Assembly (NCBI GenBank): GCA_965279325.1
Contig: OZ257154.1
Coordinates: 3,521,340 to 3,585,339, forward strand
Origin: Burkholderiales bacterium
Lineage (GTDB): Bacteria; Pseudomonadota; Gammaproteobacteria; Burkholderiales; Ga0077523
DNA: 64,000 bases
Direction of reading: 5' to 3'
Positions 598-21,931 of the stretch are shown piece after piece. Every line of letters begins with the position of its first letter. Position 1 is the first letter of the stretch. The notes under the pieces were generated by a model. That model had not been told where the DNA came from and ran no database searches. It was given only the letters and a program-made list of their open reading frames with translations. The position numbers were made by a program, and so were the translations under genes.

Positions 598-607
598 GGC
601 GATACGG

Positions 608-3600
608 ATGAGCCGCCGCCGGGAATTCAGACCGACCACCCTCGCCGTCGCGCTCGCCGCGTGCTTTCCGATCGCGTCCATCGGCAATCCGCTCGACCCG
701 GCGGTCGTGGTGGGTGGAGCGACGTTCCAGACCCAGGGCAATACGCTGACCGTCACCAATGCGCCGGGGACGGTGATCAACTGGCAGTCGTTCTCCATCG
801 GCCAGGACGAGGTCACGCGCTTCATCCAGCAATCGGCCGCGAGCCAGGTGCTGAACCGTGTGATCGGCGGCGATCCCAGCCAGATCCTGGGTACTCTCCA
901 GTCCAACGGCCAGGTGTTCCTGATCAATCCCAACGGGATCGTCTTCGGTGTCGGCGCGCAGGTGGACGTCGCGGGCCTCGTCGTCTCGTCGCTCGGCATC
1001 ACCAACGCCGATTTCCTTTCCGGGCGGTTGTCCTTCGCCAGCGGCGCGACCGCGGGCAGCATCCGCAACGATGGTACGTTGCGGGCCGTCGACGGCGGTT
1101 CGATCTATCTCATCGCGCCTTCCATCGAGAACCACGGCATCGTCGCCGCGCCCGACGGATCCGTGGTGCTCGCGGCGGGCAAGACCGCGACCCTGATGGA
1201 TTCGAACCGGCCGTTCGTGCAGGTCGAGATCACGGCGGGTGGCGAAGCCATCAATGTCGGGCAACTGGTGGCGAGCAACGTCGGCATCTATGCCGGTGCG
1301 GTCCGCGTGAGTGGAACGGTCGAAGCCACGCATGCCGTGATGGATGAGTCCGGCCGGATCCGTTTCGCCGCGACCGGTGACACGACGATCACCGCAGACG
1401 GCGTGGTGAAGGCCGATGGTGCCTCGGGCGGTGAAGTGCGAATCGAGTCCGGCGGCACGACCCTGGTCGACGGGAAGATCACGGCCAACGGCAGCAGCGG
1501 CACCGGCGGCACCATCGTGCTGCTGGGAGCGCAGGTGGGCTTGCGGGAGGAGAGCTTCGTCGACGCATCGGGATTGCGCGGCGGCGGCAGCGTGTTCGTC
1601 GGCGGTGGCGTTCGAGGAATGGACCCGACGCTGCCGAAAGCCTCGCGTACGTACGTCGCGCCCGGTGCCATCGTCCGCGCCGACGCGCAGGAACGCGGCG
1701 ATGGCGGGCGCATCGTCGTCTGGGGTGACCAGTTCGCCGGCGTTCACGGAGCGTTGTCGGCGCGCGGCGGTGCAGTCGGCGGCAATGGGGGTTTCATCGA
1801 GACCTCGGGCGGCTCGCTCGTGGTGTCGTCCACGCCGGATGTCACCGCACCGGCGGGTGTCGGCGGAACCTGGCTCATCGACCCGAACAACATCACGATC
1901 GTGGCGGGCACCGGGTTCACGGGCATCAACAACGTCAACCCGTTCGCATCCACCGTCGACGGTGCACAACTCGGCGTCACGTTGATCCGCAATGCGCTGA
2001 CCGGTGGAGCGAACGTCACGATCACGACGGGTGCGGGCGGCAGCCAGGCCGGCGACATCGTCTGGAGCACCGGCGCGGCGCTGGATTACAACGGCTCCGG
2101 CACGAACTCGCTCACGTTGTCGGCGCATAACAGCATCACGCTGAGCTCGAACATCAGCGACAGCAATGCGACGACCACTGACCGGCTCAATCTGACGCTC
2201 ACGCCCAACAGCGACGGTGTCGGCGGTGGTGGTGTCACCGTGATGGCGTCCACCGTCCTGGATCTGAAAGGTGGATTGCTGCAGGTCAACGGTGGCGGCG
2301 GCATCACTTTCGCGAATGGCTCGACGCTGTCCAATGCCACGCTTCAGGCCGGCGCCGTCACGCTGAACAGCGGGAGCATCTACTTCAACGGCATTGCACT
2401 CGCGACGGACCTCACCGTCCCGTCCGGCACGACGTTGCGAGTGGACAGCGGGGATCTGACGTTGAGCGGCGCGAATCGTACGCTCACGCTGGCCGGAGAC
2501 ATGTACCTCTACCAGCAGACCGGGACGCAGACCCTCGGCGGGGCAGGACGAATCGTGTTCGCCAGCAGTGGGGCGACGATCTACTCGCCCTATGGCGGCA
2601 GTACGCAGGTGATCGGATCGGGGATCACGCTGACGGGTACCACCAACGGACAGTTCCAGAGCTGGGGCAACTTCCGCAACGAAGGGATCATCCGTTCCGA
2701 GGTCGCCGGGACCACCATCACGGTGACCAAGCAGAACACCGCCGGTACCAGGGCGGTGAACGTCGGGTTGATCGAGGCGACGGCTGGCTCGGTGACCCTG
2801 GGCGGCGGGCCCTGGGAGAACGAGGACGGTCCGACCAACGGGACGATCCGCGCCAACGGCGGCACGCTCAACCTGAACGGCGCATTCAGCACGGCCACCC
2901 TGGGCAACCTGCAATCGCCCTCGGGTGTGATGCAGATCGGTAGTGGTGGTGTGCTCACCAACACCGGCCAGACGCTGGCGTTGGGCAGCGGACTGACCAC
3001 CGCCTCGTTGCGGTTGGCCAATGGTGCAATCACCGGCGGCACCATCACCACGGCCAATGGTGCGACCTTCACGCAACTGGGTAGCGGTACCAGTTACCTG
3101 AACGGCGTCACGCTGGGCACCGACTTCGTCGTCCCGTCCGGTGCAGTGCTGCGGGTGGATAGCGGCGACCTGAACCTGAGTGGGACCAACCGCGTGCTGA
3201 CGCTGCAGGGTGATATTTACCTGTATCAGCAGACCGGCACGCAGACCCTGGGCGGGACGGGCCGGATCGTGTTCGCCAACAATGGCGCGCAGATCTACGC
3301 GCCCTATGGCGGCAGCACGCAAGTGATCGGCCCCGGGATCACGCTCACGGGGACGACCAACGGGCAGTTCCAGAGCTGGGGCAACATCCGCAACGAAGGG
3401 ACGATCCGTTCGGAAGTGGCCGGTACCACGATCACGGTGACCAAGCAGAACACCGGCGGCACCAAGGCGGTGAACGTCGGGACGATCGAGGCTACAGCGG
3501 GCGTGGTCACGCTCGCGGGCGGTTCGTGGGAGAACGAGGACGGGGCGTTGAACGGGACGATCCGTTCGGCCGGCGGGACGATGAACCTCACCGGCGGCTT

Positions 3601-6600
3601 CAGCACCGCCACGCTGGGCAATCTGCAATCGCCTTCTGGCGTGATGCAGATTGGCACTAGCGGCGTGCTGACCAATACCGGCGAGACGCTGGCACTCGGT
3701 AGCGGACTGACCACCGCCTCGTTGCGGCTGGCGGGCGGTGCGATCAACGGTGGAACCATCACCACGGCCAATGGCGCGACCTTCACGCAACTGGGCAGCG
3801 GCACCAGCTACCTGAACGGCGTCACGCTGGGCACCGACTTCGTCGTCCCGTCCGGTGCAGTGCTGCGGGTGGATAGCGGCGACCTGAACCTGAGTGGGAC
3901 CAACCGCGTGCTGACGCTGCAGGGTGATATTTACCTGTATCAGCAGACCGGCACGCAGACCCTGGGCGGGACGGGCCGGATCGTGTTCGCCAACAATGGC
4001 GCGCAGATCTACGCGCCCTATGGCGGCAGCACGCAAGTGATCGGCCCCGGGATCACGCTCACGGGGACGACCAACGGGCAGTTCCAGAGCTGGGGCAACA
4101 TCCGCAACGAAGGAACGATCCGTTCGGAAGTGGCCGGCACGACGATCACGGTGACCAAGCAGAACACCGGTGGCACCAAGACGGTGAACGTCGGGCTGAT
4201 CGAAGCGGTGGCCGGGTCGGTAACCTTGAGCGGTGGTCCGTGGGAGAACGAAGACGGGGCGCTCAACGGCACCATCCGCGCGGGCGCGGCGGGCACGGTC
4301 AACCTCAATGGTGCGTTCAACACCGCCACGCTGGGCAACCTGCAGACCACCGGCGCGGGTGTGATGCAGCTGACGGCCAGCGGCTCGATCGCGAACACGG
4401 GCCAGACGCTGACCCTGGGTGGGACGGGGACTTCGGCTTCATTGCGGATCGCAGGCGGAGCGATCAACGGCGGCACTATCACCACGGCCAACGGTGCATC
4501 CCTCACACAGCTCGCTAGCGGCTACAGCTACCTGAACGACGTCACGCTGGACACCGACTTCACCGTCCCGGCGGGCGGGATCCTGCGCGTCGACAGCGGC
4601 GGTCTGACGTTGGCCGGTACCAATCGCACGCTCACGCTGGTCGGGGACATGTACCTGTACCAGCAGACGGGGACACAGACCCTGGGCGGTACCGGCCGGA
4701 TCGTGTTCGCCAACGCGGGCGCGCAGATCTACAGCAACTACGCCGGCAACACCGTGGTGGTGGGCCCGAACGTCACGGTGAGCGGCACTACCAACGGCGG
4801 CCTCCAGCTGTACAGCAACTTCCGCAACGAGGGGACGATCCGTTCGGAAGTGGCGGGCACGACGATCACGGTGACCAAGCAGAACACCGGCGGCACCAAG
4901 GCGGTGAACGTCGGGCTGATCGAAGCGGTGGCCGGGTCGGTAACCCTTAGCGGTGGTCCGTGGGAGAACGAAGACGGTGCGCTCAACGGGACGATCCGTG
5001 CCAACGGCGGCACGCTCAATCTGAACGGCGCGTTCAGTACCGCCACGCTGGGCAACCTGCAATCGCCCGGCGGCGTCCTGCAGATCAGCAGCAGCGGCAG
5101 TCTCGACAACACCGGCCAGACCCTCGCCCTGGGCAGCGGACTGACCACGGCGTCGCTGCGCCTGGCCGGTGGGGCGATCAACGGTGGAACCGTCACGGCG
5201 GCCAATGGCGCGACCTTCACACAGCTCGCCAGCGGTTACAGCTACCTGAACGACGTCACGCTGGACACCGATTTCACCGTCCCGGCGGGCGGTATCCTGC
5301 GCGTCGACAGCGGCGGTCTGACGTTGGCCGGCGCCAACCGCACGCTCACGCTGGCCGGGGACATGTACCTGTACCAGCAGACCGGAACGCAAACGCTCGG
5401 CGGCACGGGTCGCATCGTGTTCGCCAACGCGAATGCGCAGATCTACAGCAACTACACCAACAACACCGTGGTGGTGGGCCCGAACGTCACGGTGAGCGGC
5501 ACCACCAACGGCAGCTTCCAGCTGTACAGCAGCTTCCGCAACGAAGGGACGATCCGTTCGGAAGTGGCCGGCACGACGATCACGGTGACCAAGCAGAACA
5601 CCGGTGGCACCAAGGCGGTGAACGTCGGGCTGATCGAAGCGGTGGCCGGATCGGTAACCTTGAGCGGTGGTCCGTGGGAGAACGAAGACGGGGCGCTCAA
5701 CGGCACCATCCGCGCGGGCGCGGCGGGCACGGTCAACCTCAATGGTGCGTTCAACACCGTCACACTGGGCAACCTGCAGGCGACCGGCGCAGGCGTGATG
5801 CAGTTGTCGAGCGGCGGCTCGATCGCCAACACCGGCCAGACACTGACGCTGGGTGGCGCGGGAACCTCGGCGTCCCTGCGACTCGCCGGTGGCGCCATCA
5901 CCGGCGGGACGGTCGCGACGGTCAACGGTGCGAGCCTCACCCTGGCTGCGGGCACCAGCCGGATGAATGCGGTGACGCTGGCCACGGATCTGACCGTCCC
6001 CGTGGGATCGGTGCTGCAAGTGGACTCCGGCGATGTGACTCTGAGCGGGTCGAATCGGGTGTTGACGCTGCAGGGTGATATGTACCTGTACCAGCAGACC
6101 GGAACGCAGACCCTGGGCGGCACGGGCCGGATCGTGTTCGCCAACGCGGGCGCGCAGATCTACGCCAACTACACCAACAACACCGTGGTGGTGGGCCCGA
6201 ACGTCACGGTGAACGCAACCACCAACGGAGCCTTCTCGCTGTACAGCAACTTCCGCAACGAGGGGGCGATCCGTTCGGACGTGGCTGGCACCACGATCAC
6301 GGTGAACAAGTACGGCACCGGCACTTCGGAGAACGTCGGGTCGATCGTGGCCGACGGATCATCGGCCGTGGTGCTGAACGGCACCACCGCCACGCTCGAC
6401 AATACCGGCGGCACGATTCGCGCGAGCAATGGCGGGCGCATCGACATCAACACGACCATCGCCACGTCGGATCTCGGGACTCTCGATGCCACCGGCGGCA
6501 CGGTGCGCCTCATGAGCAGTGGCGTGCTCGACAACACGGGCGACACGTTCCAGCCGGGCGTGGACATGGCGGGCTCGCTCACCGTGGCCGGCGGCACGAT

Positions 6601-9600
6601 CCGCGGCGGCATCGTGCAGGACGACCCGGCGAATCCGGCCGCGCTCATCCTCGTCAACGGCACCTCGCCGAGGTTCGACAACGTCACGGTCGACTACGAC
6701 CTCGCACTGGCGGCCAACCAGTTGCTCTACGTGGACAACGGCAACCTCACGCTGGCGAACGGCCGGACGCTGACCATCGGATCCGCCGCCGGAGCCGCCT
6801 ACCTGTATTTCACGCAGAACGCCGCGCAGGAACTCAGGACCACCGCCGGCGGCTCGGCGCAAGTGTTGTTCGCCAATGCGTCCGGCACCAGTTACGTCTA
6901 CTCCAATTCCAGCACGCTCAGCCACCAGTTGACCATCCGGCCGGGCATCACGATCGGTGGCACCGGCGACGGTCTCGTCTACGCGCCCACGCTGGTCAAC
7001 GAGGGCACCATCCGCGCCGGAGCCACGGGCCAGAGCATCAATGTCCAGGCCTACTCGTTCGACAACCTGTCCGGCGGCCTGGTCGAAGCGGCGTCGGGCG
7101 GCTCGATCCTGTTCCAGAACTACGCCACGAGTGCCTCCGAGTTCACCAATGCAGGGACGATTCGCGCCGCGCCCGGTGGCACGGTCGAGCTCGACTACGG
7201 CACTTTCTCCGGCACCTTCCTGTCGTCGCTGACGAGTACCGGCGGAACGGTGGCCGTCGGCAGCGTGGTCGACAACACCAATCAGACGCTGACACTCGAC
7301 CCCGCTACCATCGGCAATCTGAACCTGTTCTCCGGCGGCACGATCCGCGGCGGCACGGTGACGAGCGTCGGCGGTGCAACGCTCACCATCCCGAACGCCG
7401 GTTCGATCACGCTCGACGGTGTGACGCTCGACACCGATCTGGTCGCGGCCGGCAACTCGACCATCTCCGTGCCCGGCACGCTCACGATCGTGGGTGGCCA
7501 CCGGCTATCGTTGGGCTCGGCGGGCACGTCGGCGACGCTCGTCTTCAATGGAGCCGCGGCCAACAGCCTGCTGCGCGGCGGCACCGGGACGGCCGAGGTC
7601 GCCTTCGCCTCCGGTACGGGCAGCAACCTTTATCACAACAGCGGCACGCTCGACATCGGTTCGGGTGTCCTGATCCATTCCACCGGCGGCAGCGGAACGA
7701 TCAACAACAACGGCCGGGTTTTCACCAACAGCGGCGAGATCGACGCGGACGTATCCGGCCAGACCATCAACCTCGTCGCGACCGGGATGACCAATAGCGG
7801 CCTGGTCGGCGCCTCGAACGGCGGCGTTCTCGCCCTGAGCGGTACGTTCAACCCGGCATCGCTCGGTGTATTCGATGCCAACGGAGGCACGGTCCGGATC
7901 GGAAGTTCGGCGATCTTCGACCTGCAAGGCGGCGTCTTCGCCATGACTGCCGCAACCGGCGGCGTCGAACTCTCCGCCGGCACGATCCGTAACGGCACCT
8001 TGCGCGATGCCGGCGCCGCCATGACGGTCGGTCCGTCCTCCGGAACGCTCGACGGCGTGACGCTCGACCAGAATCTCACGCTCGCGAGCCGGAATCTCAA
8101 CGTTCCGAACGGTCTCGCGATCCAGGGCGGACGCACCGTCAACCTCGAAGGCGGCGGCGTGCTGACGCTCACGGGTACCGGCGTCGCCCGCGCGATCACC
8201 CGTGGAGGCAGCGGCACGGCGGAGATCGTGCTCGGCAACGGCGCGATCAGCGCCAACAACACCGGCACGCTGACATTGGGGCAAGGGTTGCTCGTGCGCT
8301 CGGGTGCCAACGGCAACGGGTCGATCGGTAGCGGCAACACGACCGCACTCATCAATCAGGGCACGATCGCCGTCGACCAATCCGGCCGCTCCATTTCGCT
8401 GTTCGCGAACGCGACCGGATCGATCGACAATCAGGGGCTGATCCGCGTCGTGCAGGGCGCGTCCCTGTCCACGACCGGCCATGCTCTCGTCAACAACAAC
8501 ACGGCGGTCGGCGGCGGATTGCAGATCGGCGGCACGATCACGCTGGGCACGGGTATCACGCTCACCAACAACGGGCGATTCGGCCCGGGCAATTCGCCGG
8601 GCCTGGCGACGATCAGCGGCAATCTCGTGCTCGGCACCAACAGCGTCCTCGATATCGAAGTCGAAGGGCTCGCGCGCGGCACGCAATACGACGCGATCGA
8701 CGTCACGGGGACGGCCACCCTCGGCGGCGCGGTCAATGTCATCCGGTTCGGGGCCTACACGGAGACCGCCGGCGATATCCTGCGGGTCGTGACCGCGCAG
8801 GCTCTGTCCGGCAATTTCCGATCGGTCACGGGCACCGCCACGTGGACGGTGCAAACAGACGTGCGCAACGCGTTCCTGCAAGCGATCAGCAGCGATCCGA
8901 TTCTTCTCTGGACCCTCAACGGTTCCGGGGCCTGGACGACGGCAGCCAACTGGAACCTCAATCGAGTTCCGACGGCCACGGACATCGTGCTGATCGATCA
9001 ACCGGGCACGATCAACGTCGCATTGTCCTCCGGTGCCTTGGCGGCGCGACGCCTGTTCGCGTTCGACGGCGTCACGATCAACGGCGCGACGCTGACGCTC
9101 GCCGGGTCGTCGTTCGTGGGAGCGGGATCGTCGTTCGCGCTGTCCAGCGGCGGACTCGGCGGTGCCGGCGACCTCACGTTGACGGGCGCGTCCACCTGGA
9201 GCGGTGGTGTCCTGAGCGGCGGCAGCGCGTTGCGTCTCGCCTCCGGCGCCGTACTGACCGCCAGCGGCAACTCTGCCACTACGCAGCTCGCGGGTCGCAC
9301 GCTGGAGATCCAGAGCGGTGCGAGCGCGACCTTCAACGGCGAGATCGAATCCGAGCCCGGCACCAGCGTGATCAACAATGCCGGCACGCTGACCTTGGCG
9401 GGCACGCGGCTGAGCCACATCTATAACGCCAGCGGCACGATCACGGTGAACAACACCGGGACGGTCAACAAGACCGGCGCCGGCGTCTACGACCTGGGCA
9501 CCGACTTCAACAACGACGGTACCGTGAACATCCAGGGCGGGACACTGCGCCTGGCTGGCTCCGGCACCAGCAACGGCGTCGTTGCGATCGGCGGCAACGT

Positions 9601-12600
9601 GCTCGAACTGGCCGGCGGTACCCAGACGCTCACCAGCGCTTCGAACCTCTCGGGCAGTGGAACGCTACGCACCAGCGGCGGCAGTCTGGTCGTGAACACC
9701 ACCACACCGAACTTCAGCTTCAACGGCACGGTGCAGACCAGCAGCGGCAGTGCGAGCTTTGCACCGTCGATGACCCTGTCGCAGCTCACGTTGAGCGGTG
9801 GTACGACGACCTTCAATGCTGCGGTGAGCACGCCACGGCTGACCCAGAGCGGCGGTACGCTCGCCGGCGCAAGTACGCTCACGCTGAGCGGTCCCGGCTC
9901 CACCTGGAGCGGTGGCACGTGGAGCGGTGGTGGCCGCGTGGTGCTGAACACCGGGACCGATCTCGTGGCCAGCGGCAACTCTGCTACTACGCAGCTTGCG
10001 GGTCGCACGCTGGAGATCCAGAGCGGCGCGAGCGCGACCTTCAACGGCGAGATCGAATCCGAGCCCGGGACGAGCGTGATCGCCAACGCCGGCACGCTGA
10101 CCCTGGCGGGAACGCGGCTGAGCCACATCTACAACGCCAGCGGCACGATCACGGTGAACAACACCGGCACGATCAACAAGACCGGCACGGGCACCTACAG
10201 CCTTGGCGCCAATCTGAACAACGACGCGGTGTTGAATGTCCTCGCCGGCAATCTCACGAACGACGGCAATGGGACCAGCACGGGCGATCTCGATATCGCC
10301 GCCTCGGCGACCTATCAGCACGCCGGCGGAACGCAGACGTTGACCAACGCATCCGGCGTGACCGGCGTCGGCGAGTTGCTGGTGTCCGGCGGTACCTTGG
10401 CGGTGAACACGCCGACTGCCGGATTCGCGCATACGGGCGTCATCCGGAACACCGGCGGACTGGCGAGTTTCGCCGCGAATCTCACGCCGTCGCACGTGGC
10501 TCTCTCCGGCGGTACGACGACCTTCAACGGCAGCGTCATCACGCCGTTGCTCAGTCAGAGCGGCGGCACGCTTGCAGGCGGGAGTCTGGTGACGCTGACC
10601 GGCGCCGGATCGACCTGGACCGGTGGAACGTGGACCAGCAACGGCACCGTGCGCCTGAACCCGGGTGCATCGTTGACCGCCAATGGCAGCTCCGCCACCA
10701 CGCAGCTTGCGGGTCGCACGCTGGAGATCCAGAGCGGTGCGAGCGCGACCTTCAACGGCGAGATCGAATCCGAGCCCGGTACGAGCGTGATCGCGAATGC
10801 CGGCACGCTGACCCTGGCGGGCACGCGGCTGAGCCACATCTACAACGCCAGCGGCACGATCACGGTGAACAACACCGGCACGATCAACAAGACCGGCGCC
10901 GGCGTTTACGATCTGGGCACCGACTTCAACAACGACGGTACCGTGAACATCCAGGGCGGGACACTGCGCCTGGCCGGCTCCGGCGCCAGCAACGGTACCT
11001 TCGCGATCGGCGGCAGCGTCCTCGAGCAAGCCTTCGGGACGCAGACCTTCACCAGCGCCTCGAGCCTCTCGGGCAGCGGGACGCTGCGCACCAGCGGCGG
11101 CAGTCTCGTGGTCAACACCACCACAGCGAACTTCGGCTTCTCCGGTACGGTACAGACCAGCAACGGCAGTGCGAGCTTCGCCCCGTCGATGACCCTGTCG
11201 CAGCTCACGTTGAGCGGTGGTACGACGACCTTCAATGGCGCGGTGAGCACGCCGCAGTTGACGCAGAGCGCGGGCGTGCTCGCGGGCGCGAGCGTAGTGA
11301 CGCTCACTGGTCCCGGCTCCACCTGGAGCGGCGGTACGTGGACGGGCAACGGCACCGTTCGTCTCGCCTCCGGCGCCGTACTGACGGCGAGCGGCAGCAC
11401 CGCCAGCACGCAGTTGGCCGGTCGCACGCTGGAGATACAGAACGGTGCGAGCGCGATCTTCAACGGCGAGATCGAATCCGAACCCGGCACGAGTGTGATC
11501 AACAACGCCGGGACGCTGACGCTGGCCGGCACGCGGCTGAGCCACGTCTACAACGCCAGCGGCACGATCACGGTGAACAACACCGGGACCATCGAGAAGA
11601 CCGGTACGGGCGCCTACATCCTTGGCGCCAACCTCAACAACAACCAGACCGGTGATATCAACGCGTCCGGGACCCTCGTGCTCGCCGGTGGCACGCTCAC
11701 CAATGCCGGCACCCTGCGCCCGGCGGGTGCCGGCACCATCGGCACGCTCAATCTCGGCGGAAACTTCGTGCAAACCGGCACGGGCGTGATCGAGATCGAG
11801 ACGATCGGTACCGCGCCGGGCGATTCGGACGTGCTCGCCGTGTCGGGCAACGCGGCATTGGGTGGATTGCTGGAACTGGTCGCCATCAACGGCTACACGC
11901 CATCCGGCGCGAGTGCGTACGCCGACGTTCTCACCTACGCATCCCGTACCGGAGCCTTCGAAGCCGTCGGTGGCGCGGCATTCCCGGCGCTTACCCCGAC
12001 CTACGGAGCCAACGGCCTCACGATCGCGATCACCACCGGTGGCTCCATCGTGTGTCCCACCGGCTTCAGCGTGTGCTGGATCGGCACTTCGGATGGCAGC
12101 TGGAACGATACCGCGCAATGGAACACCGGCGCAGTGCCAACGGCAACGGACGATGTGTACGTGGCGGCGCCCGGCAGCATCACCATTACTGCGGCGAACG
12201 GCGGCGCCGTGAATCGACTCGTGAGCGAAGAGAGCTTCCTCCTGGCCGGTGGGACGTTCTTGCTCAACGGCGCATCGTCCGTCGGTCAGACACTGGCGAT
12301 CACGGGCGGTATCTTGCAGGCTAACGCAAACCTGGCGGCTGGATCGATCACCCTCAATGGTGGCGCGCTCAACGTCGGGGCTGGCGCGACGGTGTCCATC
12401 GCGAACCAGTTCGCATGGTCGGGGGGGGGCATCAATGGTGCGGGCACCAGCTCGGTGCTGCAGATCGCCGCGCCCGCCACCGTGAATGTGAGTGGCGCAA
12501 CGAAGGCGTTGGTCAACGTCGCCGTTGTCAACGCCGGCCAGATGAATCTGGGCCTCAGCACGAACAGCATGCTGCAGTTGAACGACGGTGCGTCAATTTC

Positions 12601-15600
12601 GAACAGCGGGACGCTCACGTTCACCGAGACCAACGCGATCGGTAGCGTGTCGGGCTCGGGCAGCCTCACCAATACCGGCACCATCGCTGCCGCCGCGAGC
12701 CGCACGGGCACCGTCCAGTCGACCACGTTCGCCAACAACGGCGGAACGCTGCAGGCGAGCGCGGTGGGCTCTTCGCTGCAGATGCGTTCCGCGTCGAGCA
12801 GCTACAGTGGTACGACGACCGTCGCTGGTACCGGTGTCCGGTTCGATGGCGGGGCACACACGTTCAGCGACGGCGCGACGGTCACGGGCCAGGTGAACCA
12901 GTCCAGCGCCATCACGTTCAATTCGACGGCCATCAACGGAACGTGGAACCAGTCTGGAGGTTCCACCAGCATCGCGGCGGGTGATACGTTGACGTTGAAC
13001 GGCACGGCGAACTGGTCCGGCGGCGGTATCTTCGGTGCGGGGCCAGGCGCAGCGCTCGCGCTTACCACGGGCGACGTGCTGAACGTGAGCGGCGCGACGC
13101 GCGGCTTGACCAATGTCGCCCTGACCAATGCCGGCCAGGTGAACGTCGGGCTCGACACCAACGGCATGCTGCAGCTGAACGACGGTGCCTCGATCGCGAA
13201 CAGCGGCGCACTCACTTTCGCGGAGACCAACGCCATCGGTACCGTTTCCGGGTCGGGCAGCTTTGCCAATGCCGGGACGATCGCCGTGGCCGCCGGCCGG
13301 ACCGGCACGGTCGAATCCACGAGCTTCAGCAATGGTGGCGGAGCCCTGCAGACGGGCTCCGGGTCGGTCCTGCGGATGCGCTCCGGGAACAGCAGCTACT
13401 CCGGCGCAACGACGATCACCGGTACCGGAGTGCAATTCGACGCGGGGACGCACACGTTTGCCGATGGCGCCAGTGTCGTCGGCCAGTTCAATCAGGCAAC
13501 GAACATCGTCTACGGCGACACGGTGCTGGCCGGTGTCTGGAACCTGAGCGCCGGCACGGCCTTGCTGGGTGCCGGCAAGACAATCACGTTGAACGGTACG
13601 GCCAATTGGTCAGGTGGCGGTATCGTCGGCTCGGGACCCACCTCGGCTCTCGCACTGTCCTCGGGCGACACGCTCAACATCACAGGTAGCACCAAGGCGC
13701 TGACCAACGCTCGTGTCGATGCGGGTCCCGGCTCCGCCGTGAACGTGGGCCTGAACACCAATGGAATGCTGCAGTTGAACGACGGTGCGTCGATCACGAA
13801 CAGTGGGACGCTCACGTTCACCGAGACCAACGCGATCGGTAGCGTGTCGGGCTCGGGCAGCCTCACCAATACCGGCACCATCGCTGCCGCCGCGAGCCGC
13901 ACGGGCACCGTCCAGCCGACCACCTTTGCCAACAACGGTGGAACGCTGCAGGCAAACGCGGCTGGCTCCTCGCTCCAGCTGCACTCGGGTTCGAGCAGCT
14001 ACAGTGGCACCACCACGCTCAACGGTACCGGCGTGCAGTTCAGCAGCGGCACCCACAGCTTCGCCGACGGTGCGAGCGTGAACGGCGTGCTGAACCAGTC
14101 TGCCAATCTCGTCTTCGGTACCGTTGCGCTCAACGGCACGTGGAACCAGTCGGGTGGCAACGCCCTGATCGACGCCAACGACACGCTCAGCGTCAACGGC
14201 ATCGTCAACTGGTCCGGCGGCGGCATCGTGGGCAGCGGTGGCTCCTTGCTGCAGGTCGCAGCGCCGGCGCGGTTCAACATGAGCGGGGCGACACGCGCAC
14301 TCACCAATGTGGCACTGGTGAATGCCGGAGTGATGAACCTCGGCCTGAACACCAACGCCGTGCTGCAGTTGAACGATGGGGCGTCAATCGCCAATGCGAG
14401 TACGTTCACTTTCGTCGAAACCAACGCTATCGGCACCGGCTCCGGATCGGGCAGCTTCGTCAACAATGGAACGTTGACGACGGTTGCCGGCGTGGCCGGA
14501 ACCGTGGGCAGCACGTCGTTCACCAACGCAGGTCTGGTGCGGGCCGCCGCCAACGCGAGCGTGGCGCTGCAGGCGGGCGGAACGCACACCGGTGCGTTCG
14601 AAGCGGACACCGGCGGCACCGTGGCATTCAGCGGCGGAACCCACAACCTGGGCGACGGCAGCCGCCTCACCAACGGACTGGTTCAAGTGAACGGGGGCAG
14701 CTTGAATCTCGTCGGGACCGGCGCCGGAACGCTGATACCGGTGGGTGCCGTCGTGTCATTGAGCGGTCAGACACTCGGCGGTTCAGGACTCCTGGACAAC
14801 CGGGGTACCCTCAATCTCGGCAACAGCACCGTCGCGGGCAGCGTGACCAATACCGGGACGTTGAACGTGACCGGCTCCAGCGCCGTCAACGGCGCGCGCT
14901 TCGACCAGAACAACGGAATCCTGTTGCTCAACGCGGGCTCGACGCTGACCAAGAACAGCGGCGTCTTCGCGTGGAACGGCGGTACGCTCGGCGGTCCCGG
15001 CACGCTGACCATGGCGAATGGAGCGTTGTTCGACATCGCAGGAACCGGCGCCCGCGTGCTCGACGGTCCGACGCTCAACATCGGCGGTCTCGGTCTGCAG
15101 GCCGGCTCGCTCGAAGTGCGCTCGGGGAGCCTCACCACCGCCGGCATCTCCACCATCGTGTCCGGCGCGACGCTCGTCCTCAATGGTGGCACCTTCAACA
15201 ACACCGCGCCCATGACTGTCGCGGGCACACTCGATCTGCGGACCGGCAGCCTTGCGCTCAACGGCGACGCGAGCCATACCGGCAGCTTCCTGCTCGGATC
15301 CGGGACGACGCTCGCTTTTGCATCCGGAATCCAGACGCTCACCGGACCGCTGTCGGGCAACGGCACGGTGGTGGTGTCCGGTGCGACGGTGACGTCGACT
15401 GGGTCCTATTCCGCGGCCACCACCAACGTCTCCGGCGGGACGCTCGCACTGAACGGCGCCGCGCAATCCCAGATCGTCAACGTGGGCCAGGGCGGAACGT
15501 TGGCGACAGGCGGAACCGTCACGTTCACGTCGCTCAACGTCAGCGGCGGGACTGTCGATGCGCAAGGCACCCTGAACGCCACCAATCTGTCGGTGGGGTC

Positions 15601-16513
15601 GGGTGCGGTGAACGGCGCTGGAACGGTGAACGTCGCGAACTTCACGCAATCCGGTGGCAGCGTGGACGGCACCGGCACTTTCAACGTGACCAACCGCTAC
15701 AACGCGACCGGCGGTTCGCTCGGCACCCGCTGGCGTGTGATGGCCATCACGCACACGCAGGGTGACCTCGTGTTGAATCGGGTGCACGCGGCGGGTACGA
15801 CGTCGGTCAGCGTGAGCAACGGCGCCCTGCGGGTCGTGGCGCTCGGCAGTCGCGCCGGTATCAGCGGCAGTACCGGCGTGACGGTGAACGCGTCGGGCGA
15901 CCTGGTATTGCAGGGCGGTTCCGGCGAGGGGGCGAGCGCCTTCGTGCAGTCCGGTGGCGGACCCTGCACGATCAACGTCGGCGGTACCACGCGACTGATC
16001 GGCGGGACCGGACCAAGCTCCAATGCCTTCATCAACGGCACTCCCGATGTCGGCAGCTTCGCGCAGCCGATCCGGCTCGCGGGACCGATCGAATTCATCG
16101 ACGGCTCGGGCGGTACGGCGCAGGTGCAGTCTTTCTCGCCGAGCAGCGTGTACGTGAACTTCCCGACCTTGAGTTCGGGCGGCTACACCGTCAACGGCGT
16201 CGAGGTGACATCTGCTGGATCGTCGGGATTCTTCGCGGGCGGCGCGCCTGCAGTGTTGAACAGCAATCTGTTCATCACGTACGGAGCGCTAGTGGTGCCG
16301 CCACCGCCACCACCACCACTCGGAGGTGGCACGTTGCAGCTTCCACTACTGACCGGAGCGCTCGAAGGCGGACCGTTAGCCACCAACGTGGTGGTTACCG
16401 CATCGGAACGTGGTCTGCTGTTCAACTTCCCAGAACCGCCGAAACCCGCTCTCGGCCCGGGTAGCCAAGGCGTGGTCGGAACCGAACGCCGGAGCATTCC
16501 ACAATGTCGATAG
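608..16513 (+). CDS. Giant two-partner-secretion exoprotein (TpsA / filamentous-haemagglutinin-like), 5,301 aa
   Basis: ATG at 608 verified in sequence (ORF track opens at 539). Signal peptide MSRRREFRPTTLAVALAACFPIASIG. TPS domain with QVLNRVIGGDPSQILG...QVFLINPNGIVFG, then GGFIETSG...WLIDPNNITIV. Remainder is Gly/Thr/Asn/Ser-rich beta-helix-like repeats. Confidence 0.92.
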   Translation: MSRRREFRPTTLAVALAACFPIASIGNPLDPAVVVGGATFQTQGNTLTVTNAPGTVINWQSFSIGQDEVTRFIQQSAASQVLNRVIGGDPSQILGTLQSNGQVFLINPNGIVFGVGAQVDVAGLVVSSLGITNADFLSGRLSFASGATAGSIRNDGTLRAVDGGSIYLIAPSIENHGIVAAPDGSVVLAAGKTATLMDSNRPFVQVEITAGGEAINVGQLVASNVGIYAGAVRVSGTVEATHAVMDESGRIRFAATGDTTITADGVVKADGASGGEVRIESGGTTLVDGKITANGSSGTGGTIVLLGAQVGLREESFVDASGLRGGGSVFVGGGVRGMDPTLPKASRTYVAPGAIVRADAQERGDGGRIVVWGDQFAGVHGALSARGGAVGGNGGFIETSGGSLVVSSTPDVTAPAGVGGTWLIDPNNITIVAGTGFTGINNVNPFASTVDGAQLGVTLIRNALTGGANVTITTGAGGSQAGDIVWSTGAALDYNGSGTNSLTLSAHNSITLSSNISDSNATTTDRLNLTLTPNSDGVGGGGVTVMASTVLDLKGGLLQVNGGGGITFANGSTLSNATLQAGAVTLNSGSIYFNGIALATDLTVPSGTTLRVDSGDLTLSGANRTLTLAGDMYLYQQTGTQTLGGAGRIVFASSGATIYSPYGGSTQVIGSGITLTGTTNGQFQSWGNFRNEGIIRSEVAGTTITVTKQNTAGTRAVNVGLIEATAGSVTLGGGPWENEDGPTNGTIRANGGTLNLNGAFSTATLGNLQSPSGVMQIGSGGVLTNTGQTLALGSGLTTASLRLANGAITGGTITTANGATFTQLGSGTSYLNGVTLGTDFVVPSGAVLRVDSGDLNLSGTNRVLTLQGDIYLYQQTGTQTLGGTGRIVFANNGAQIYAPYGGSTQVIGPGITLTGTTNGQFQSWGNIRNEGTIRSEVAGTTITVTKQNTGGTKAVNVGTIEATAGVVTLAGGSWENEDGALNGTIRSAGGTMNLTGGFSTATLGNLQSPSGVMQIGTSGVLTNTGETLALGSGLTTASLRLAGGAINGGTITTANGATFTQLGSGTSYLNGVTLGTDFVVPSGAVLRVDSGDLNLSGTNRVLTLQGDIYLYQQTGTQTLGGTGRIVFANNGAQIYAPYGGSTQVIGPGITLTGTTNGQFQSWGNIRNEGTIRSEVAGTTITVTKQNTGGTKTVNVGLIEAVAGSVTLSGGPWENEDGALNGTIRAGAAGTVNLNGAFNTATLGNLQTTGAGVMQLTASGSIANTGQTLTLGGTGTSASLRIAGGAINGGTITTANGASLTQLASGYSYLNDVTLDTDFTVPAGGILRVDSGGLTLAGTNRTLTLVGDMYLYQQTGTQTLGGTGRIVFANAGAQIYSNYAGNTVVVGPNVTVSGTTNGGLQLYSNFRNEGTIRSEVAGTTITVTKQNTGGTKAVNVGLIEAVAGSVTLSGGPWENEDGALNGTIRANGGTLNLNGAFSTATLGNLQSPGGVLQISSSGSLDNTGQTLALGSGLTTASLRLAGGAINGGTVTAANGATFTQLASGYSYLNDVTLDTDFTVPAGGILRVDSGGLTLAGANRTLTLAGDMYLYQQTGTQTLGGTGRIVFANANAQIYSNYTNNTVVVGPNVTVSGTTNGSFQLYSSFRNEGTIRSEVAGTTITVTKQNTGGTKAVNVGLIEAVAGSVTLSGGPWENEDGALNGTIRAGAAGTVNLNGAFNTVTLGNLQATGAGVMQLSSGGSIANTGQTLTLGGAGTSASLRLAGGAITGGTVATVNGASLTLAAGTSRMNAVTLATDLTVPVGSVLQVDSGDVTLSGSNRVLTLQGDMYLYQQTGTQTLGGTGRIVFANAGAQIYANYTNNTVVVGPNVTVNATTNGAFSLYSNFRNEGAIRSDVAGTTITVNKYGTGTSENVGSIVADGSSAVVLNGTTATLDNTGGTIRASNGGRIDINTTIATSDLGTLDATGGTVRLMSSGVLDNTGDTFQPGVDMAGSLTVAGGTIRGGIVQDDPANPAALILVNGTSPRFDNVTVDYDLALAANQLLYVDNGNLTLANGRTLTIGSAAGAAYLYFTQNAAQELRTTAGGSAQVLFANASGTSYVYSNSSTLSHQLTIRPGITIGGTGDGLVYAPTLVNEGTIRAGATGQSINVQAYSFDNLSGGLVEAASGGSILFQNYATSASEFTNAGTIRAAPGGTVELDYGTFSGTFLSSLTSTGGTVAVGSVVDNTNQTLTLDPATIGNLNLFSGGTIRGGTVTSVGGATLTIPNAGSITLDGVTLDTDLVAAGNSTISVPGTLTIVGGHRLSLGSAGTSATLVFNGAAANSLLRGGTGTAEVAFASGTGSNLYHNSGTLDIGSGVLIHSTGGSGTINNNGRVFTNSGEIDADVSGQTINLVATGMTNSGLVGASNGGVLALSGTFNPASLGVFDANGGTVRIGSSAIFDLQGGVFAMTAATGGVELSAGTIRNGTLRDAGAAMTVGPSSGTLDGVTLDQNLTLASRNLNVPNGLAIQGGRTVNLEGGGVLTLTGTGVARAITRGGSGTAEIVLGNGAISANNTGTLTLGQGLLVRSGANGNGSIGSGNTTALINQGTIAVDQSGRSISLFANATGSIDNQGLIRVVQGASLSTTGHALVNNNTAVGGGLQIGGTITLGTGITLTNNGRFGPGNSPGLATISGNLVLGTNSVLDIEVEGLARGTQYDAIDVTGTATLGGAVNVIRFGAYTETAGDILRVVTAQALSGNFRSVTGTATWTVQTDVRNAFLQAISSDPILLWTLNGSGAWTTAANWNLNRVPTATDIVLIDQPGTINVALSSGALAARRLFAFDGVTINGATLTLAGSSFVGAGSSFALSSGGLGGAGDLTLTGASTWSGGVLSGGSALRLASGAVLTASGNSATTQLAGRTLEIQSGASATFNGEIESEPGTSVINNAGTLTLAGTRLSHIYNASGTITVNNTGTVNKTGAGVYDLGTDFNNDGTVNIQGGTLRLAGSGTSNGVVAIGGNVLELAGGTQTLTSASNLSGSGTLRTSGGSLVVNTTTPNFSFNGTVQTSSGSASFAPSMTLSQLTLSGGTTTFNAAVSTPRLTQSGGTLAGASTLTLSGPGSTWSGGTWSGGGRVVLNTGTDLVASGNSATTQLAGRTLEIQSGASATFNGEIESEPGTSVIANAGTLTLAGTRLSHIYNASGTITVNNTGTINKTGTGTYSLGANLNNDAVLNVLAGNLTNDGNGTSTGDLDIAASATYQHAGGTQTLTNASGVTGVGELLVSGGTLAVNTPTAGFAHTGVIRNTGGLASFAANLTPSHVALSGGTTTFNGSVITPLLSQSGGTLAGGSLVTLTGAGSTWTGGTWTSNGTVRLNPGASLTANGSSATTQLAGRTLEIQSGASATFNGEIESEPGTSVIANAGTLTLAGTRLSHIYNASGTITVNNTGTINKTGAGVYDLGTDFNNDGTVNIQGGTLRLAGSGASNGTFAIGGSVLEQAFGTQTFTSASSLSGSGTLRTSGGSLVVNTTTANFGFSGTVQTSNGSASFAPSMTLSQLTLSGGTTTFNGAVSTPQLTQSAGVLAGASVVTLTGPGSTWSGGTWTGNGTVRLASGAVLTASGSTASTQLAGRTLEIQNGASAIFNGEIESEPGTSVINNAGTLTLAGTRLSHVYNASGTITVNNTGTIEKTGTGAYILGANLNNNQTGDINASGTLVLAGGTLTNAGTLRPAGAGTIGTLNLGGNFVQTGTGVIEIETIGTAPGDSDVLAVSGNAALGGLLELVAINGYTPSGASAYADVLTYASRTGAFEAVGGAAFPALTPTYGANGLTIAITTGGSIVCPTGFSVCWIGTSDGSWNDTAQWNTGAVPTATDDVYVAAPGSITITAANGGAVNRLVSEESFLLAGGTFLLNGASSVGQTLAITGGILQANANLAAGSITLNGGALNVGAGATVSIANQFAWSGGGINGAGTSSVLQIAAPATVNVSGATKALVNVAVVNAGQMNLGLSTNSMLQLNDGASISNSGTLTFTETNAIGSVSGSGSLTNTGTIAAAASRTGTVQSTTFANNGGTLQASAVGSSLQMRSASSSYSGTTTVAGTGVRFDGGAHTFSDGATVTGQVNQSSAITFNSTAINGTWNQSGGSTSIAAGDTLTLNGTANWSGGGIFGAGPGAALALTTGDVLNVSGATRGLTNVALTNAGQVNVGLDTNGMLQLNDGASIANSGALTFAETNAIGTVSGSGSFANAGTIAVAAGRTGTVESTSFSNGGGALQTGSGSVLRMRSGNSSYSGATTITGTGVQFDAGTHTFADGASVVGQFNQATNIVYGDTVLAGVWNLSAGTALLGAGKTITLNGTANWSGGGIVGSGPTSALALSSGDTLNITGSTKALTNARVDAGPGSAVNVGLNTNGMLQLNDGASITNSGTLTFTETNAIGSVSGSGSLTNTGTIAAAASRTGTVQPTTFANNGGTLQANAAGSSLQLHSGSSSYSGTTTLNGTGVQFSSGTHSFADGASVNGVLNQSANLVFGTVALNGTWNQSGGNALIDANDTLSVNGIVNWSGGGIVGSGGSLLQVAAPARFNMSGATRALTNVALVNAGVMNLGLNTNAVLQLNDGASIANASTFTFVETNAIGTGSGSGSFVNNGTLTTVAGVAGTVGSTSFTNAGLVRAAANASVALQAGGTHTGAFEADTGGTVAFSGGTHNLGDGSRLTNGLVQVNGGSLNLVGTGAGTLIPVGAVVSLSGQTLGGSGLLDNRGTLNLGNSTVAGSVTNTGTLNVTGSSAVNGARFDQNNGILLLNAGSTLTKNSGVFAWNGGTLGGPGTLTMANGALFDIAGTGARVLDGPTLNIGGLGLQAGSLEVRSGSLTTAGISTIVSGATLVLNGGTFNNTAPMTVAGTLDLRTGSLALNGDASHTGSFLLGSGTTLAFASGIQTLTGPLSGNGTVVVSGATVTSTGSYSAATTNVSGGTLALNGAAQSQIVNVGQGGTLATGGTVTFTSLNVSGGTVDAQGTLNATNLSVGSGAVNGAGTVNVANFTQSGGSVDGTGTFNVTNRYNATGGSLGTRWRVMAITHTQGDLVLNRVHAAGTTSVSVSNGALRVVALGSRAGISGSTGVTVNASGDLVLQGGSGEGASAFVQSGGGPCTINVGGTTRLIGGTGPSSNAFINGTPDVGSFAQPIRLAGPIEFIDGSGGTAQVQSFSPSSVYVNFPTLSSGGYTVNGVEVTSAGSSGFFAGGAPAVLNSNLFITYGALVVPPPPPPPLGGGTLQLPLLTGALEGGPLATNVVVTASERGLLFNFPEPPKPALGPGSQGVVGTERRSIPQCR
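2288..6590 (+). repeat. Coding tandem repeat family A: six copies, period 714-720 bp (238-240 aa), inside tpsA
   Basis: YLYQQTGTQTLGG landmark (TAC codon) at 2504, 3218, 3932, 4652, 5366, 6083. Copies 2 and 3 are almost base-identical over more than 400 bp (about 3070-3480 vs 3785-4195). Three degenerate units follow to about 8400. Confidence 0.9.
9190..11660 (+). repeat. Coding tandem repeat family B: four copies, period 708-711 bp (236-237 aa), inside tpsA
   Basis: GGGTCGCACGCTGGAGATCCAGAGCGG landmark at 9292, 10000, 10711, about 11419. Peptide TQLAGRTLEIQSGASATFNGEIESEPGTSVI.NAGTLTLAGTRLSHIYNASGTITVNNTGT recurs four times. Confidence 0.9.
12330..14680 (+). repeat. Coding tandem repeat family C: four copies, period 594-600 bp (~199 aa), inside tpsA
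   Basis: ATGCTGCAG(T/C)TGAACGA landmark at 12569, 13166, 13766, 14360. Peptide NWSGGGI...MLQLNDGASI.NSG.LTF.ETNAIG.VSGSGS recurs. Copies 1 and 3 share a near-identical stretch of about 150 bp. Confidence 0.9.
12421..12429 (+). repeat. G9 homopolymer inside the tpsA reading frame
   Basis: Read directly: ...gcatggtc ggggggggg catc..., encoding W-S-G-G-G-I. The same motif in the other three family-C units is encoded TGGTC(C/A)GG(C/T)GGCGG(T/C), without a run. Confidence 0.95.
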
Positions 16514-20485: not shown

Positions 20486-20578
20486 TCCGAACGCGAGGTC
20501 GATTGACACGCGAGTGCCCGGGCACTTACTTTGTGCGCTGCGTCATCCGTGCGGCGTTCCGCACAAGGATCCTCGGAC

Positions 20579-21880: not shown

Positions 21881-21931
21881 AACCAGGGCCGCGAGTTTTC
21901 CTCCCACCGCAAGAACAAGGAGACCCCCACC

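What the first reader, a model, noticed from the sequence alone, without database searches (positions are those of the whole stretch)
8570..12165. Two autotransporter-passenger-like junction modules partition the TpsA into three concatenated passengers
Seen: at 8570-9000 the protein reads GPGNSPGLATISGNLVLGTNSVLDIEVEGL..GTQYDAIDVTGTATLGGAVNV.... This is followed by WTLNGSGAWTTAANWNLNRVPTATDIVLI. At 11712-12165 it reads GAGTIGTLNLGGNFVQTGTGVIEIETIG...DVLAVSGNAALGGLLELV..., followed by CWIGTSDGSWNDTAQWNTGAVPTATDDVYV. Established (from memory): the SPG-TL-x-(V/I)-x-GN...E(I/L)...D.L.V.G.A.L.G.L pattern typically ends type-Va autotransporter passengers. W.G...G.W....NW......P...D.V typically begins PATR-rich passengers. 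Inference: the gene looks like a TPS domain fused to three passenger cassettes joined head to tail, each with its own repeat family. That is a chimeric Va/Vb architecture.
Basis: inference. Interest (0 to 1): 0.55.

Follow-up and report, generated by a model that had tools for sequence, protein, structure and literature searches.

The report
Segmented giant two-partner-secretion fibre protein
A 5,301-residue secreted fibre protein is split into three repeat arrays by two copies of an "end-cap plus start-cap" joint, a very common and so far unnamed building block of bacterial surface fibres, so it is not a one-off fusion of two secretion systems.

Summary
The 608..16513 gene encodes a TpsA exoprotein with a TPS domain. 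The 3' end of its tpsB transporter gene lies upstream.

The protein contains exactly two copies of a ~200-aa junction, which are paralogous (E=3e-18). Each junction has two parts:
- Module A, an "end" module of ~125 aa.
- Module B, a "start" module of ~90 aa.

The junctions separate three distinct tandem-repeat arrays, with periods of 714-720, 708-711 and 597-600 nt.

- In real type Va autotransporters, module A is the last passenger element, 127-198 aa before the beta-barrel.
- Module A's best structural and sequence matches in the PDB are the autochaperone regions of IcsA and Ssp. These matches are weak.
- Module B usually sits right after a signal peptide.

The "Va/Vb chimera" inference is not supported:
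- Module A occurs in more than 50,000 protein clusters. These include TPS, autotransporter, PEP-CTERM, T9SS and dockerin proteins, mostly with 2-10 copies per protein.
- At least 20 TpsA relatives share the same segmented design.
- All three arrays best-hit the same TpsA lineage.
- No PATR, pertactin or barrel model matches the window protein.

It is a member of an undescribed but widespread class of segmented beta-solenoid TpsA proteins.

The parts
10..597 (+). 3' end of the tpsB transporter gene (cut by the window edge)
   Evidence: Pfam ShlB PF03865 4.6e-14 and Omp85 PF01103 2.4e-9
608..16513 (+). tpsA gene, 5,301 aa from ATG 608 (the ORF is open from 539)
   Evidence: The ATG lies 11 nt after the tpsB stop codon.
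725..1408 (+). TPS secretion domain (aa 40-267), contains NPNGIVFG
   Evidence: PF05860 1e-31; TIGR01901 5e-23
2045..8527 (+). Array F1: about nine 238-240-aa super-repeats. Six are 63-93% identical and the last three are 33-38% identical.
   Evidence: DNA period 714-720 nt, up to 96% nt identity
8549..8923 (+). Module A1, the autochaperone-like end module (aa 2648-2772)
   Evidence: 120 bits to the module A profile. AF2 pLDDT is about 90. Foldseek top hits are 3ML3 and 8E7F.
8885..9178 (+). Module B1, the W..W..NW..P..D start module (aa 2760-2857)
   Evidence: 91 bits. The AF2 model has pLDDT 86.9 and the beta-solenoid starts here.
9185..11683 (+). Array F2: four ~237-aa super-repeats
   Evidence: DNA period 708-711 nt, 85% nt identity
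11684..12061 (+). Module A2 (aa 3693-3818)
   Evidence: 95 bits; paralogous to A1
12053..12337 (+). Module B2 (aa 3816-3910), preceded by the Cys pair CPTGFSVC
   Evidence: 101 bits; the Cys pair is conserved in L001 and L008
12338..14707 (+). Array F3: about four ~199-aa super-repeats
   Evidence: DNA period 597-600 nt
14708..16513 (+). Non-repeat C-terminal region with a P7 tract (nt 16298-16318) and a penultimate Cys (nt 16505-16507). It has no module A.
16504..17859 (+). FecR-domain gene overlapping the tpsA stop. It is conserved next to the orthologues.
   Evidence: PF04773 7e-21. tblastn gives 78% identity in L001 and L008 and 30% in L004.

Best explanation
The gene encodes a giant two-partner-secretion (type Vb) exoprotein built as a segmented beta-solenoid fibre.

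Each segment is a cassette with three parts: a start module, an array of long ~200-240-aa super-repeats, and an end module.
- Module B is an N-terminal cap or nucleus of a beta-solenoid. In free-standing proteins it follows the signal peptide.
- Module A is a C-terminal cap. It belongs to the same sequence family as the autochaperone-like last rungs of PATR-type autotransporter passengers.
- In this protein the TPS domain takes the place of B for cassette 1.
- Cassette 3 ends in a different C-terminal region instead of A.

The cassette is a generic, widely reused building block of surface proteins exported by many routes. The A+B joints are therefore normal cassette boundaries in a TpsA lineage, and the protein is not a fusion of autotransporter passengers onto a TpsA.

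Inferred mechanism: TpsA chains emerge N to C. Each A module closes off a finished helix and the following B module re-nucleates folding of the next one. This gives a jointed rod whose arrays expand and contract by tandem duplication.

Shown: the anatomy, the homology, the distribution and the predicted beta-solenoid fold. Inferred: the cap and nucleator roles and an adhesin or fibre function.
For: - TPS domain and adjacent TpsB.
- Two paralogous junctions, with exactly two A and two B copies.
- Three separate tandem-repeat families.
- The module A profile finds 50,870 cluster representatives at E<=1e-3 and 25,903 at E<=1e-10. The top 150 all carry 2-10 copies.
- In those 150 proteins there are 463 A copies. 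Of these, 138 are followed directly by B and 96 lie within 200 aa of the C-terminus.
- Carriers include PEP-CTERM, PATR, TPS, Autotransporter, Por_Secre_tail and Dockerin proteins.
- In Va proteins the last A ends 127-198 aa before the barrel.
- Foldseek top hits for the junction model are the IcsA autochaperone 3ML3 (E 2.3e-3, TM 0.53 on the target) and Ssp 8E7F (3.5e-3).
- The A profile's best PDB sequence hit is Ssp residues 497-592. This lies directly after the Ssp PATR (464-496), in the part that PMC9977779 describes as autochaperone-like rungs plus a beta-hairpin cap.
- B follows signal peptides or LExLExR leaders in most free-standing hits. It occurs in at least 8 phyla.
- The AF2 model of B plus the start of F2 is a confident beta-solenoid from its first residues (pLDDT 86.9).
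- Orthologues L001 and L008 are colinear (A-B-F2-A-B-F3-Cterm), but L001 has about two fewer F2 units.
- The more distant TpsA proteins L002 (Vitreoscilla; TPS+ESPR) and L004 have two and at least three A+B joints.
- Twenty of the top 150 share the TPS domain; the 14 listed are 42-51% identical.
- Secretion order: in classical autotransporters the passenger C-terminus emerges first; in TPS systems the region that emerges first, with the N-terminal TPS domain the favoured candidate, is thought to nucleate folding (PMC5422565, PMC8151025).
Against: - The link between module A and the autochaperone is weak statistically. Foldseek E-values are above 1e-3, the profile hit is E=0.12, and Pfam AC_1 does not match.
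- The A-to-B linker and module B had only pLDDT 56-74 in the model that spans the whole junction, so the geometry of the joint (rigid or hinge) is unknown.
- There are no functional data for any member.
- The sample used for export-route counts was partly hand-picked, so the proportions are not population estimates.
- Cap and nucleator roles are inferred from position only.
Confidence: 0.75

Rival explanations
1. One reading: a true Va/Vb chimera, in which autotransporter passenger cassettes were recently captured and fused behind a TPS domain.
For: Module A is found at the passenger end of PF03797 autotransporters and next to PATR. Its closest structural and sequence matches in the PDB are autotransporter autochaperone regions.
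Against: No PATR, pertactin, AC_1 or barrel match in the window protein. Modules A and B are equally present in PEP-CTERM, T9SS and dockerin proteins. F1, F2 and F3 all best-hit the same TpsA lineage. The A+B design is shared by TpsA proteins whose TPS domains are only ~42-51% identical, so it is old within TpsA.
Confidence: 0.1
2. Internal duplication only: one ancestral unit [B-array-A] was duplicated inside this gene. The three arrays then diverged and re-amplified, without any exchange of cassettes with other proteins.
For: A1/A2 and B1/B2 are each other's paralogues. There is a weak F3-F2 similarity (31%, 2e-6). Array copy number clearly changes by tandem duplication.
Against: A1 and A2 are only 33% identical, no closer than to modules in other phyla (identities of 23-39%). 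F2-type repeats also occur in non-TPS proteins of Acidobacteriota and Planctomycetota (L022, L017). F1 shows no detectable similarity to F2 or F3.
Confidence: 0.12
3. Artefact: the segmented gene is a mis-assembly of repeat-rich reads, or the motif resemblance is compositional noise in a G/T/S/A-rich protein.
For: The repeats reach 96% nt identity. Uncorrected self-BLAST is full of low-level matches.
Against: The frame is uninterrupted for 16 kb. Two independent MAG contigs (L001, L008) have the same order of modules, arrays and C-terminus, with the same FecR gene downstream. Only two sharp A and two sharp B matches stand out against noise of 6 bits or less.
Confidence: 0.03

Closest known systems
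Giant TpsA exoproteins of two-partner secretion (FhaB/FHA, HMW1, CdiA class)
   Same: N-terminal TPS domain with an NPNG motif, an adjacent ShlB/FhaC-type transporter gene, a very long beta-solenoid passenger made of tandem repeats, and a proline-rich tract near the C-terminus.
   Different: Beyond the TPS domain, no Pfam or NCBIfam family reached its curated cut-off with an aligned stretch. The passenger is cut into three cassettes by A+B joints. The system has a conserved FecR-domain partner gene and a penultimate C-terminal Cys. No toxin or known functional domain was detected.
Autochaperone region at the C-terminus of beta-helical type Va passengers (IcsA 3ML3/5KE1; Serratia Ssp 8E7F; Rojas-Lopez 2018, PMC5767081)
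   Same: Module A occupies the same position in real autotransporters, as the last passenger element 127-198 aa before the barrel and after a PATR. It gives these structures as top Foldseek hits. It aligns to Ssp 497-592 with the shared pattern SPGN.IGTL.V...Y.VEV...SD.I...GG.V.VSL...G..Y.ILT...G.F.
   Different: There is no match to a Pfam autochaperone model, and the similarity is below the usual significance thresholds. In the window protein the module is internal, present twice, in an N-to-C-secreted protein, and is followed by a start module instead of a linker and barrel. The same module is also common in proteins that are not type V at all.
G8 domain / Amnionless N-terminal beta-helix start
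   Same: Module B carries the W...W....NW......P...D.V.I pattern. Relatives of B hit Pfam Amnionless (best 1.3e-9) and occur in G8-domain proteins (3e-25). In L005 the Amnionless hit (aa 74-138) coincides with B (aa 71-154).
   Different: In the window the hit is sub-threshold (E=0.031, 13.5 bits against a cut-off of 30.4). The module is bacterial, short (~90 aa), and used both at N-termini and internally.
PATR-rich ('autotransporter-associated beta strand repeat') giant proteins of Planctomycetota and Verrucomicrobiota with PEP-CTERM or other anchors
   Same: These proteins carry the same A and B modules, often in several copies.
   Different: The window protein has no PATR (PF12951) match. 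It is exported by a TpsB partner.

Membership tests
TpsA (type Vb, two-partner secretion exoprotein) | N-terminal TPS secretion domain | tested here: met
   PF05860 1e-31 (111 bits against a cut-off of 33.5); TIGR01901 5e-23
TpsA (type Vb, two-partner secretion exoprotein) | Cognate Omp85-family TpsB transporter encoded alongside | tested here: met
   ORF 10..597 matches ShlB PF03865 at 4.6e-14. Only the C-terminal 195 aa lie inside the window.
TpsA (type Vb, two-partner secretion exoprotein) | Beta-helical/solenoid passenger | tested here: met
   The AF2 models are all-beta solenoids. pLDDT is about 90 over module A and 86.9 over B plus the start of F2.
TpsA (type Vb, two-partner secretion exoprotein) | Sec signal peptide | not testable with these tools
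   The sequence MSRRREFRPTTLAVALAACFPIASIG looks like one, but no predictor was available.
Classical autotransporter (type Va) | C-terminal 12-stranded beta-barrel (PF03797) | tested here: not met
   No hit in any segment at E<=1
Classical autotransporter (type Va) | PATR repeats (PF12951) / pertactin-like passenger models | tested here: not met
   No hit, even on the junctions alone at E<=10
Classical autotransporter (type Va) | Autochaperone domain at the passenger end | tested here: inconclusive
   There is no Pfam hit. Foldseek top hits are 3ML3 (2.3e-3) and 8E7F (3.5e-3), and the best profile hit is Ssp 497-592 at E=0.12. The position in real Va proteins is equivalent.
Module A family (unnamed end module, >50,000 clusters) | Full-length match to the profile G.SPG.L.I.GN(Y/L)...G.L.IE..G....YD.L.V.G.A.L.G.L.V....GF.P..G..F.V.......G.F | tested here: met
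   120 and 95 bits, covering profile positions 2-115
Module B family (G8/Amnionless-like start module) | Invariant W, W, W, P, D pattern and a full-length profile match | tested here: met
   Invariant columns W9 W17 W23 P29 D33 in 16 sequences; 91 and 101 bits
Module B family (G8/Amnionless-like start module) | Passes the Pfam Amnionless or G8 gathering threshold | tested here: not met
   Amnionless E=0.031, 13.5 bits against a cut-off of 30.4; no G8 hit

The most novel reading that the evidence does not exclude
The A+B joint marks a portable beta-solenoid cassette that has been reused across at least five export or anchoring routes (Va, Vb, T9SS, PEP-CTERM/exosortase, dockerin). Its A module is the general form of the autotransporter 'autochaperone'. 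That would make the autochaperone a generic beta-helix C-cap and not a type Va secretion device. In N-to-C-secreted TpsA proteins the following B module would act as a re-nucleation point, allowing fibres of more than 5,000 aa to fold segment by segment. In addition, this TpsA lineage (TpsB + FecR-domain partner + penultimate C-terminal Cys) may be an uncharacterised TPS subclass with its own C-terminal retention or anchoring mechanism.
Probability: 0.3. Interest if true: 0.6.

Novelty: new variant of a known kind. Interest (0 to 1): 0.4.

Why it matters
The autochaperone has been described as a feature exclusive to beta-helical type Va passengers (PMC5767081). Here a module of the same sequence family is internal, repeated, and sits in an N-to-C-secreted TpsA. 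It also occurs in tens of thousands of proteins exported by unrelated routes.

If the homology holds, two things follow:
- The autochaperone's role shifts from "secretion helper" to "general end cap of beta-solenoids".
- Giant adhesin-like proteins can be parsed into cassettes using a simple grammar of start module, array and end module.

Neither module matched any model in the Pfam-A or NCBIfam copies searched, so profiles for them would improve annotation of many very large "hypothetical" surface proteins. For this particular locus the practical message is more modest. It is a normal member of a widespread, unstudied TpsA lineage and not a unique chimera.

Tried and rejected
- Pfam and NCBIfam on the three segments, and on the junctions alone at E<=10, gave only the TPS domain plus noise.
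- phmmer of junction 1 against PDB sequences gave nothing meaningful.
- Tandem Repeats Finder found nothing because the periods (597-720 nt) exceed its 500-nt limit. The repeat finder was used instead.
- Self-BLAST without composition correction was swamped by low-complexity matches. It was repeated with correction.
- The search for homologous proteins returned only short metagenomic fragments, because its word prefilter favours them. These were useful for what flanks the modules, but not for full architectures.
- A combined alignment of A-only and B-only fragments (A7) misplaced the B fragments onto module A. It was not used for structure prediction, and B was modelled separately (A8).
- Foldseek of the B model gave only generic beta-helices, best E=0.22.
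- An exact-sequence look-up of the FecR-like protein found no record, so the source organism is unknown. The nearest relative is a Burkholderiales MAG.
- Literature searches for autochaperone + PEP-CTERM, two-partner secretion + FecR, and modular giant TpsA found no description of this architecture.
- Considered and rejected: mis-assembly, and chance motif resemblance (see the rival explanations).
Full report
**What is at the locus.** A single open frame runs from 539 to 16513 on the + strand. From the ATG at 608, which lies 11 nt after the stop of the preceding ORF, it encodes 5,301 aa.
- The N-terminus carries a TPS secretion domain: PF05860 1e-31 and TIGR01901 5e-23, with the NPNGIVFG motif visible.
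- The preceding ORF (10..597, cut by the window edge) is the C-terminus of a ShlB/FhaC-type transporter: PF03865 4.6e-14.
- The following ORF (16504..17859) has a FecR domain: PF04773 7e-21.

The gene is therefore a TpsA of a two-partner (type Vb) secretion system. Beyond the TPS domain, no other Pfam or NCBIfam family reached its curated cut-off with an aligned stretch in any part of the protein. There is no PATR, pertactin, autochaperone or autotransporter barrel, even when the two junctions are scanned alone at E<=10.

**Checking the observation.**
- The two junction regions are homologous: 33% identity over 202 aa, BLASTP E=3e-18.
- Each junction has two parts. Module A is about 125 aa (aa 2648-2772 and 3693-3818). 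Module B is about 90 aa (aa 2760-2857 and 3816-3910).
- Profiles built from relatives score these four sites at 91-120 bits. Nothing else in the protein scores above 6 bits, so there are exactly two junctions.
- Composition-corrected self-comparison shows that they separate three repeat families:
  - F1: aa ~480-2640, about nine units of 238-240 aa. Six are 63-93% identical and three are diverged.
  - F2: aa ~2885-3780, four units of ~237 aa.
  - F3: aa ~3910-4700, about four units of ~199 aa.
  - F1 is not detectably similar to F2 or F3, and there is only a faint F3-F2 match.
- At the DNA level the periods are 714-720, 708-711 and 597-600 nt, with up to 96% identity between neighbouring F1 units.
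- The last 600 aa are not repetitive and contain no module A.

**What module A is.** An exhaustive HMMER search of 1.84 billion cluster representatives with an 18-sequence module A profile found 50,870 proteins at E<=1e-3 and 25,903 at E<=1e-10. Every one of the best 150 has 2-10 copies.
- In those 150 proteins I counted 463 A copies. Of these, 138 are followed directly by a B module (an undercount, because the B profile was built from two sequences). A further 96 lie within 200 aa of the C-terminus.
- Short metagenomic fragments show A just upstream of PEP-CTERM and related sorting tags, dockerin-like segments and PATR repeats.
- A Pfam scan of 38 carriers gave PEP-CTERM 8, PATR 5, TPS 4, Autotransporter beta-domain 3, T9SS Por_Secre_tail 3 and Dockerin 2. 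That sample was partly hand-picked, so it shows breadth and not proportions.
- In the three autotransporters the last A ends 139, 127 and 198 aa before the barrel. In one of them it follows a PATR.

**Structure of the first junction.** An AlphaFold2 model spanning junction 1 is all-beta, with pLDDT about 90 over the end of F1 and module A.
- Its best Foldseek matches in the PDB are the IcsA autochaperone region (3ML3; E 2.3e-3, TM 0.53 on the target), the Serratia Ssp autotransporter (8E7F; 3.5e-3) and the IcsA C-terminal passenger fragment (5KE1).
- Independently, the module A sequence profile has as its best PDB hit Ssp residues 497-592 (E=0.12), with a convincing shared pattern.
- In the Ssp structure paper the PATR is residues 464-496. 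The last three rungs resemble an autochaperone and end in a beta-hairpin cap (PMC9977779).
- None of these numbers is significant on its own. The agreement of fold search, sequence profile and position in real autotransporters makes "autochaperone-like end cap" the best reading. I rate it as moderately supported.

**What module B is.** The pattern is W..G...W....NW.....P...D.V.I, with invariant W, W, W, P and D in 16 diverse copies.
- A scan of one genome per species found it in 52 loci from Burkholderiales, Gammaproteobacteria, Planctomycetota, Verrucomicrobiota, Bacteroidota, Acidobacteriota, Gemmatimonadota, Nitrospirota and others.
- In free-standing fragments it comes directly after a signal peptide or an LExLExR-type leader.
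- In giant proteins it also occurs internally, often right after A.
- Of 27 B-bearing ORFs, 10 have a T9SS sorting domain, 4 a G8 domain, 4 hit Amnionless (best 1.3e-9) and only 3 have PATR. B is therefore a general start module and not a PATR-specific one.
- The window copy hits Amnionless only below threshold (E=0.031).
- A second AlphaFold2 model of B1 plus the start of F2 is confident (pLDDT 86.9, pTM 0.82). It shows the solenoid beginning at B. Its PDB matches are only generic beta-helices.

**Is this a Va/Vb chimera?** The evidence says no.
- L001 (a Burkholderiales MAG; 64% identity in the junction) and L008 are colinear with the window: late F1, A, B, F2, A, B, F3, and the C-terminal region. 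L001 also keeps the same poly-Pro ...ISQCR end, and both have the same FecR gene downstream.
- In L001 the A1-to-A2 distance is 592 aa, against 1,045 aa in the window. That is about two F2 units fewer, so the arrays change in length while the joints are kept.
- L002 (Vitreoscilla; Pfam TPS + ESPR) has two A+B joints. L004 is a gammaproteobacterial locus ordered tpsB-fecR-tpsA. Its large ORF has a TPS-like N-terminus by eye, although Pfam found no TPS domain in it. It has five A modules and three A+B joints.
- Twenty of the top 150 module A carriers share the window's TPS domain; the 14 best listed are 42-51% identical.
- All three arrays best-hit TPS-type proteins of this lineage. F2-like units also turn up in non-TPS proteins of Acidobacteriota and Planctomycetota.

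The "three concatenated cassettes" description stands.

**How it most likely works.** The protein is a jointed beta-solenoid fibre.
- TPS substrates are translocated progressively. The region that emerges first is thought to nucleate folding, with the TPS domain as the favoured candidate (PMC5422565).
- In classical autotransporters the C-terminal autochaperone emerges first and templates folding (PMC8151025).
- In an N-to-C-secreted TpsA, an A module would fold last in its cassette and can only act as a closing cap. The following B module would restart folding of the next helix.
- Cassette 1 uses the TPS domain as its start. Cassette 3 ends in a different C-terminal region.
- These roles are inferred from position and predicted fold and have not been shown. 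The biological function is unknown, since no enzymatic or toxin domain was detected. It is presumably adhesion or a surface fibre.

**Novelty and score.** The locus is an ordinary member of a widespread TpsA lineage. The two modules belong to very large families that matched no model in the Pfam-A and NCBIfam copies searched. I found no description of them in the searchable literature. The point of interest for a type V specialist is that an autochaperone-type module is internal, repeated and used well beyond type Va. The point of deflation is that the "chimera" is not real. I score interest at 0.40 and class it as a new variant of a known kind.

Noticed in passing
window 16298-16510 (C-terminus of TpsA); L001 ORF end; L004 ORF end: The TpsA ends with a P7 tract and then ...ERRSIPQCR*, so the penultimate residue is Cys. 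L001 ends ...RRPISQCR* and L004 ends ...GSLICN*. Of the top 150 module A carriers, 37 end in C-x, and so do 12 of the 15 with a detectable TPS domain. The fragments P0003 and P0012 also end ...QCS and ...QCR. This may be a conserved extreme-C-terminal signal of this TpsA lineage. I know of no described function.
   Followed up: partly
window 16504-17859; L001 9522-10790; L008 5193-6461; L004 3547-4863: A FecR-domain protein gene is conserved next to the TPS genes. It is 78% identical in L001 and L008. In L004 it is 30% identical and lies between tpsB and tpsA. In the window it overlaps the tpsA stop codon by 10 nt. No ECF sigma factor gene was looked for. It could be a third component of this TPS subclass.
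   Followed up: partly
window 12053-12076: A Cys pair (CPTGFSVC) sits immediately before the first Trp of module B2. It is conserved as CPPGFDVC in L001 and L008, and L012 has ...VCW. Junction 1 lacks it. It may form a disulphide at the joint.
   Followed up: no
window 9185-11683 versus L001 ORF aa 1217-1601: Array copy number varies between orthologues. The A1-to-A2 spacing is 1,045 aa in the window but 592 aa in the Burkholderiales MAG, about two F2 units fewer. The B2-to-C-terminal-region spacing is the same in both, ~790 aa.
   Followed up: partly
proteins P0007, P0229, P0230, P0232, P0236, P0238, P0241: In many fragments module B is preceded by an LE.LE.R-type N-terminal motif instead of a classical signal peptide. 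From memory this leader is typical of giant Planctomycetota proteins. It was not examined further.
   Followed up: no
window 455-4036 (-), 7505-9418 (-), 9665-12118 (-), 9919-11655 (+): Very long ORFs lie on the opposite strand and in other frames inside tpsA (up to 1,193 aa). They coincide with the GC-rich repeat arrays and are most likely stop-codon-poor artefacts and not genes.
   Followed up: no
window 19616-23680: Downstream genes appear to be unrelated housekeeping or metabolic genes: an M48 peptidase, a DAO-family FAD oxidoreductase and a PQQ-dependent dehydrogenase. Nothing suggests a mobile element around the TPS locus. GC content is flat at 64-68% across the window.
   Followed up: no
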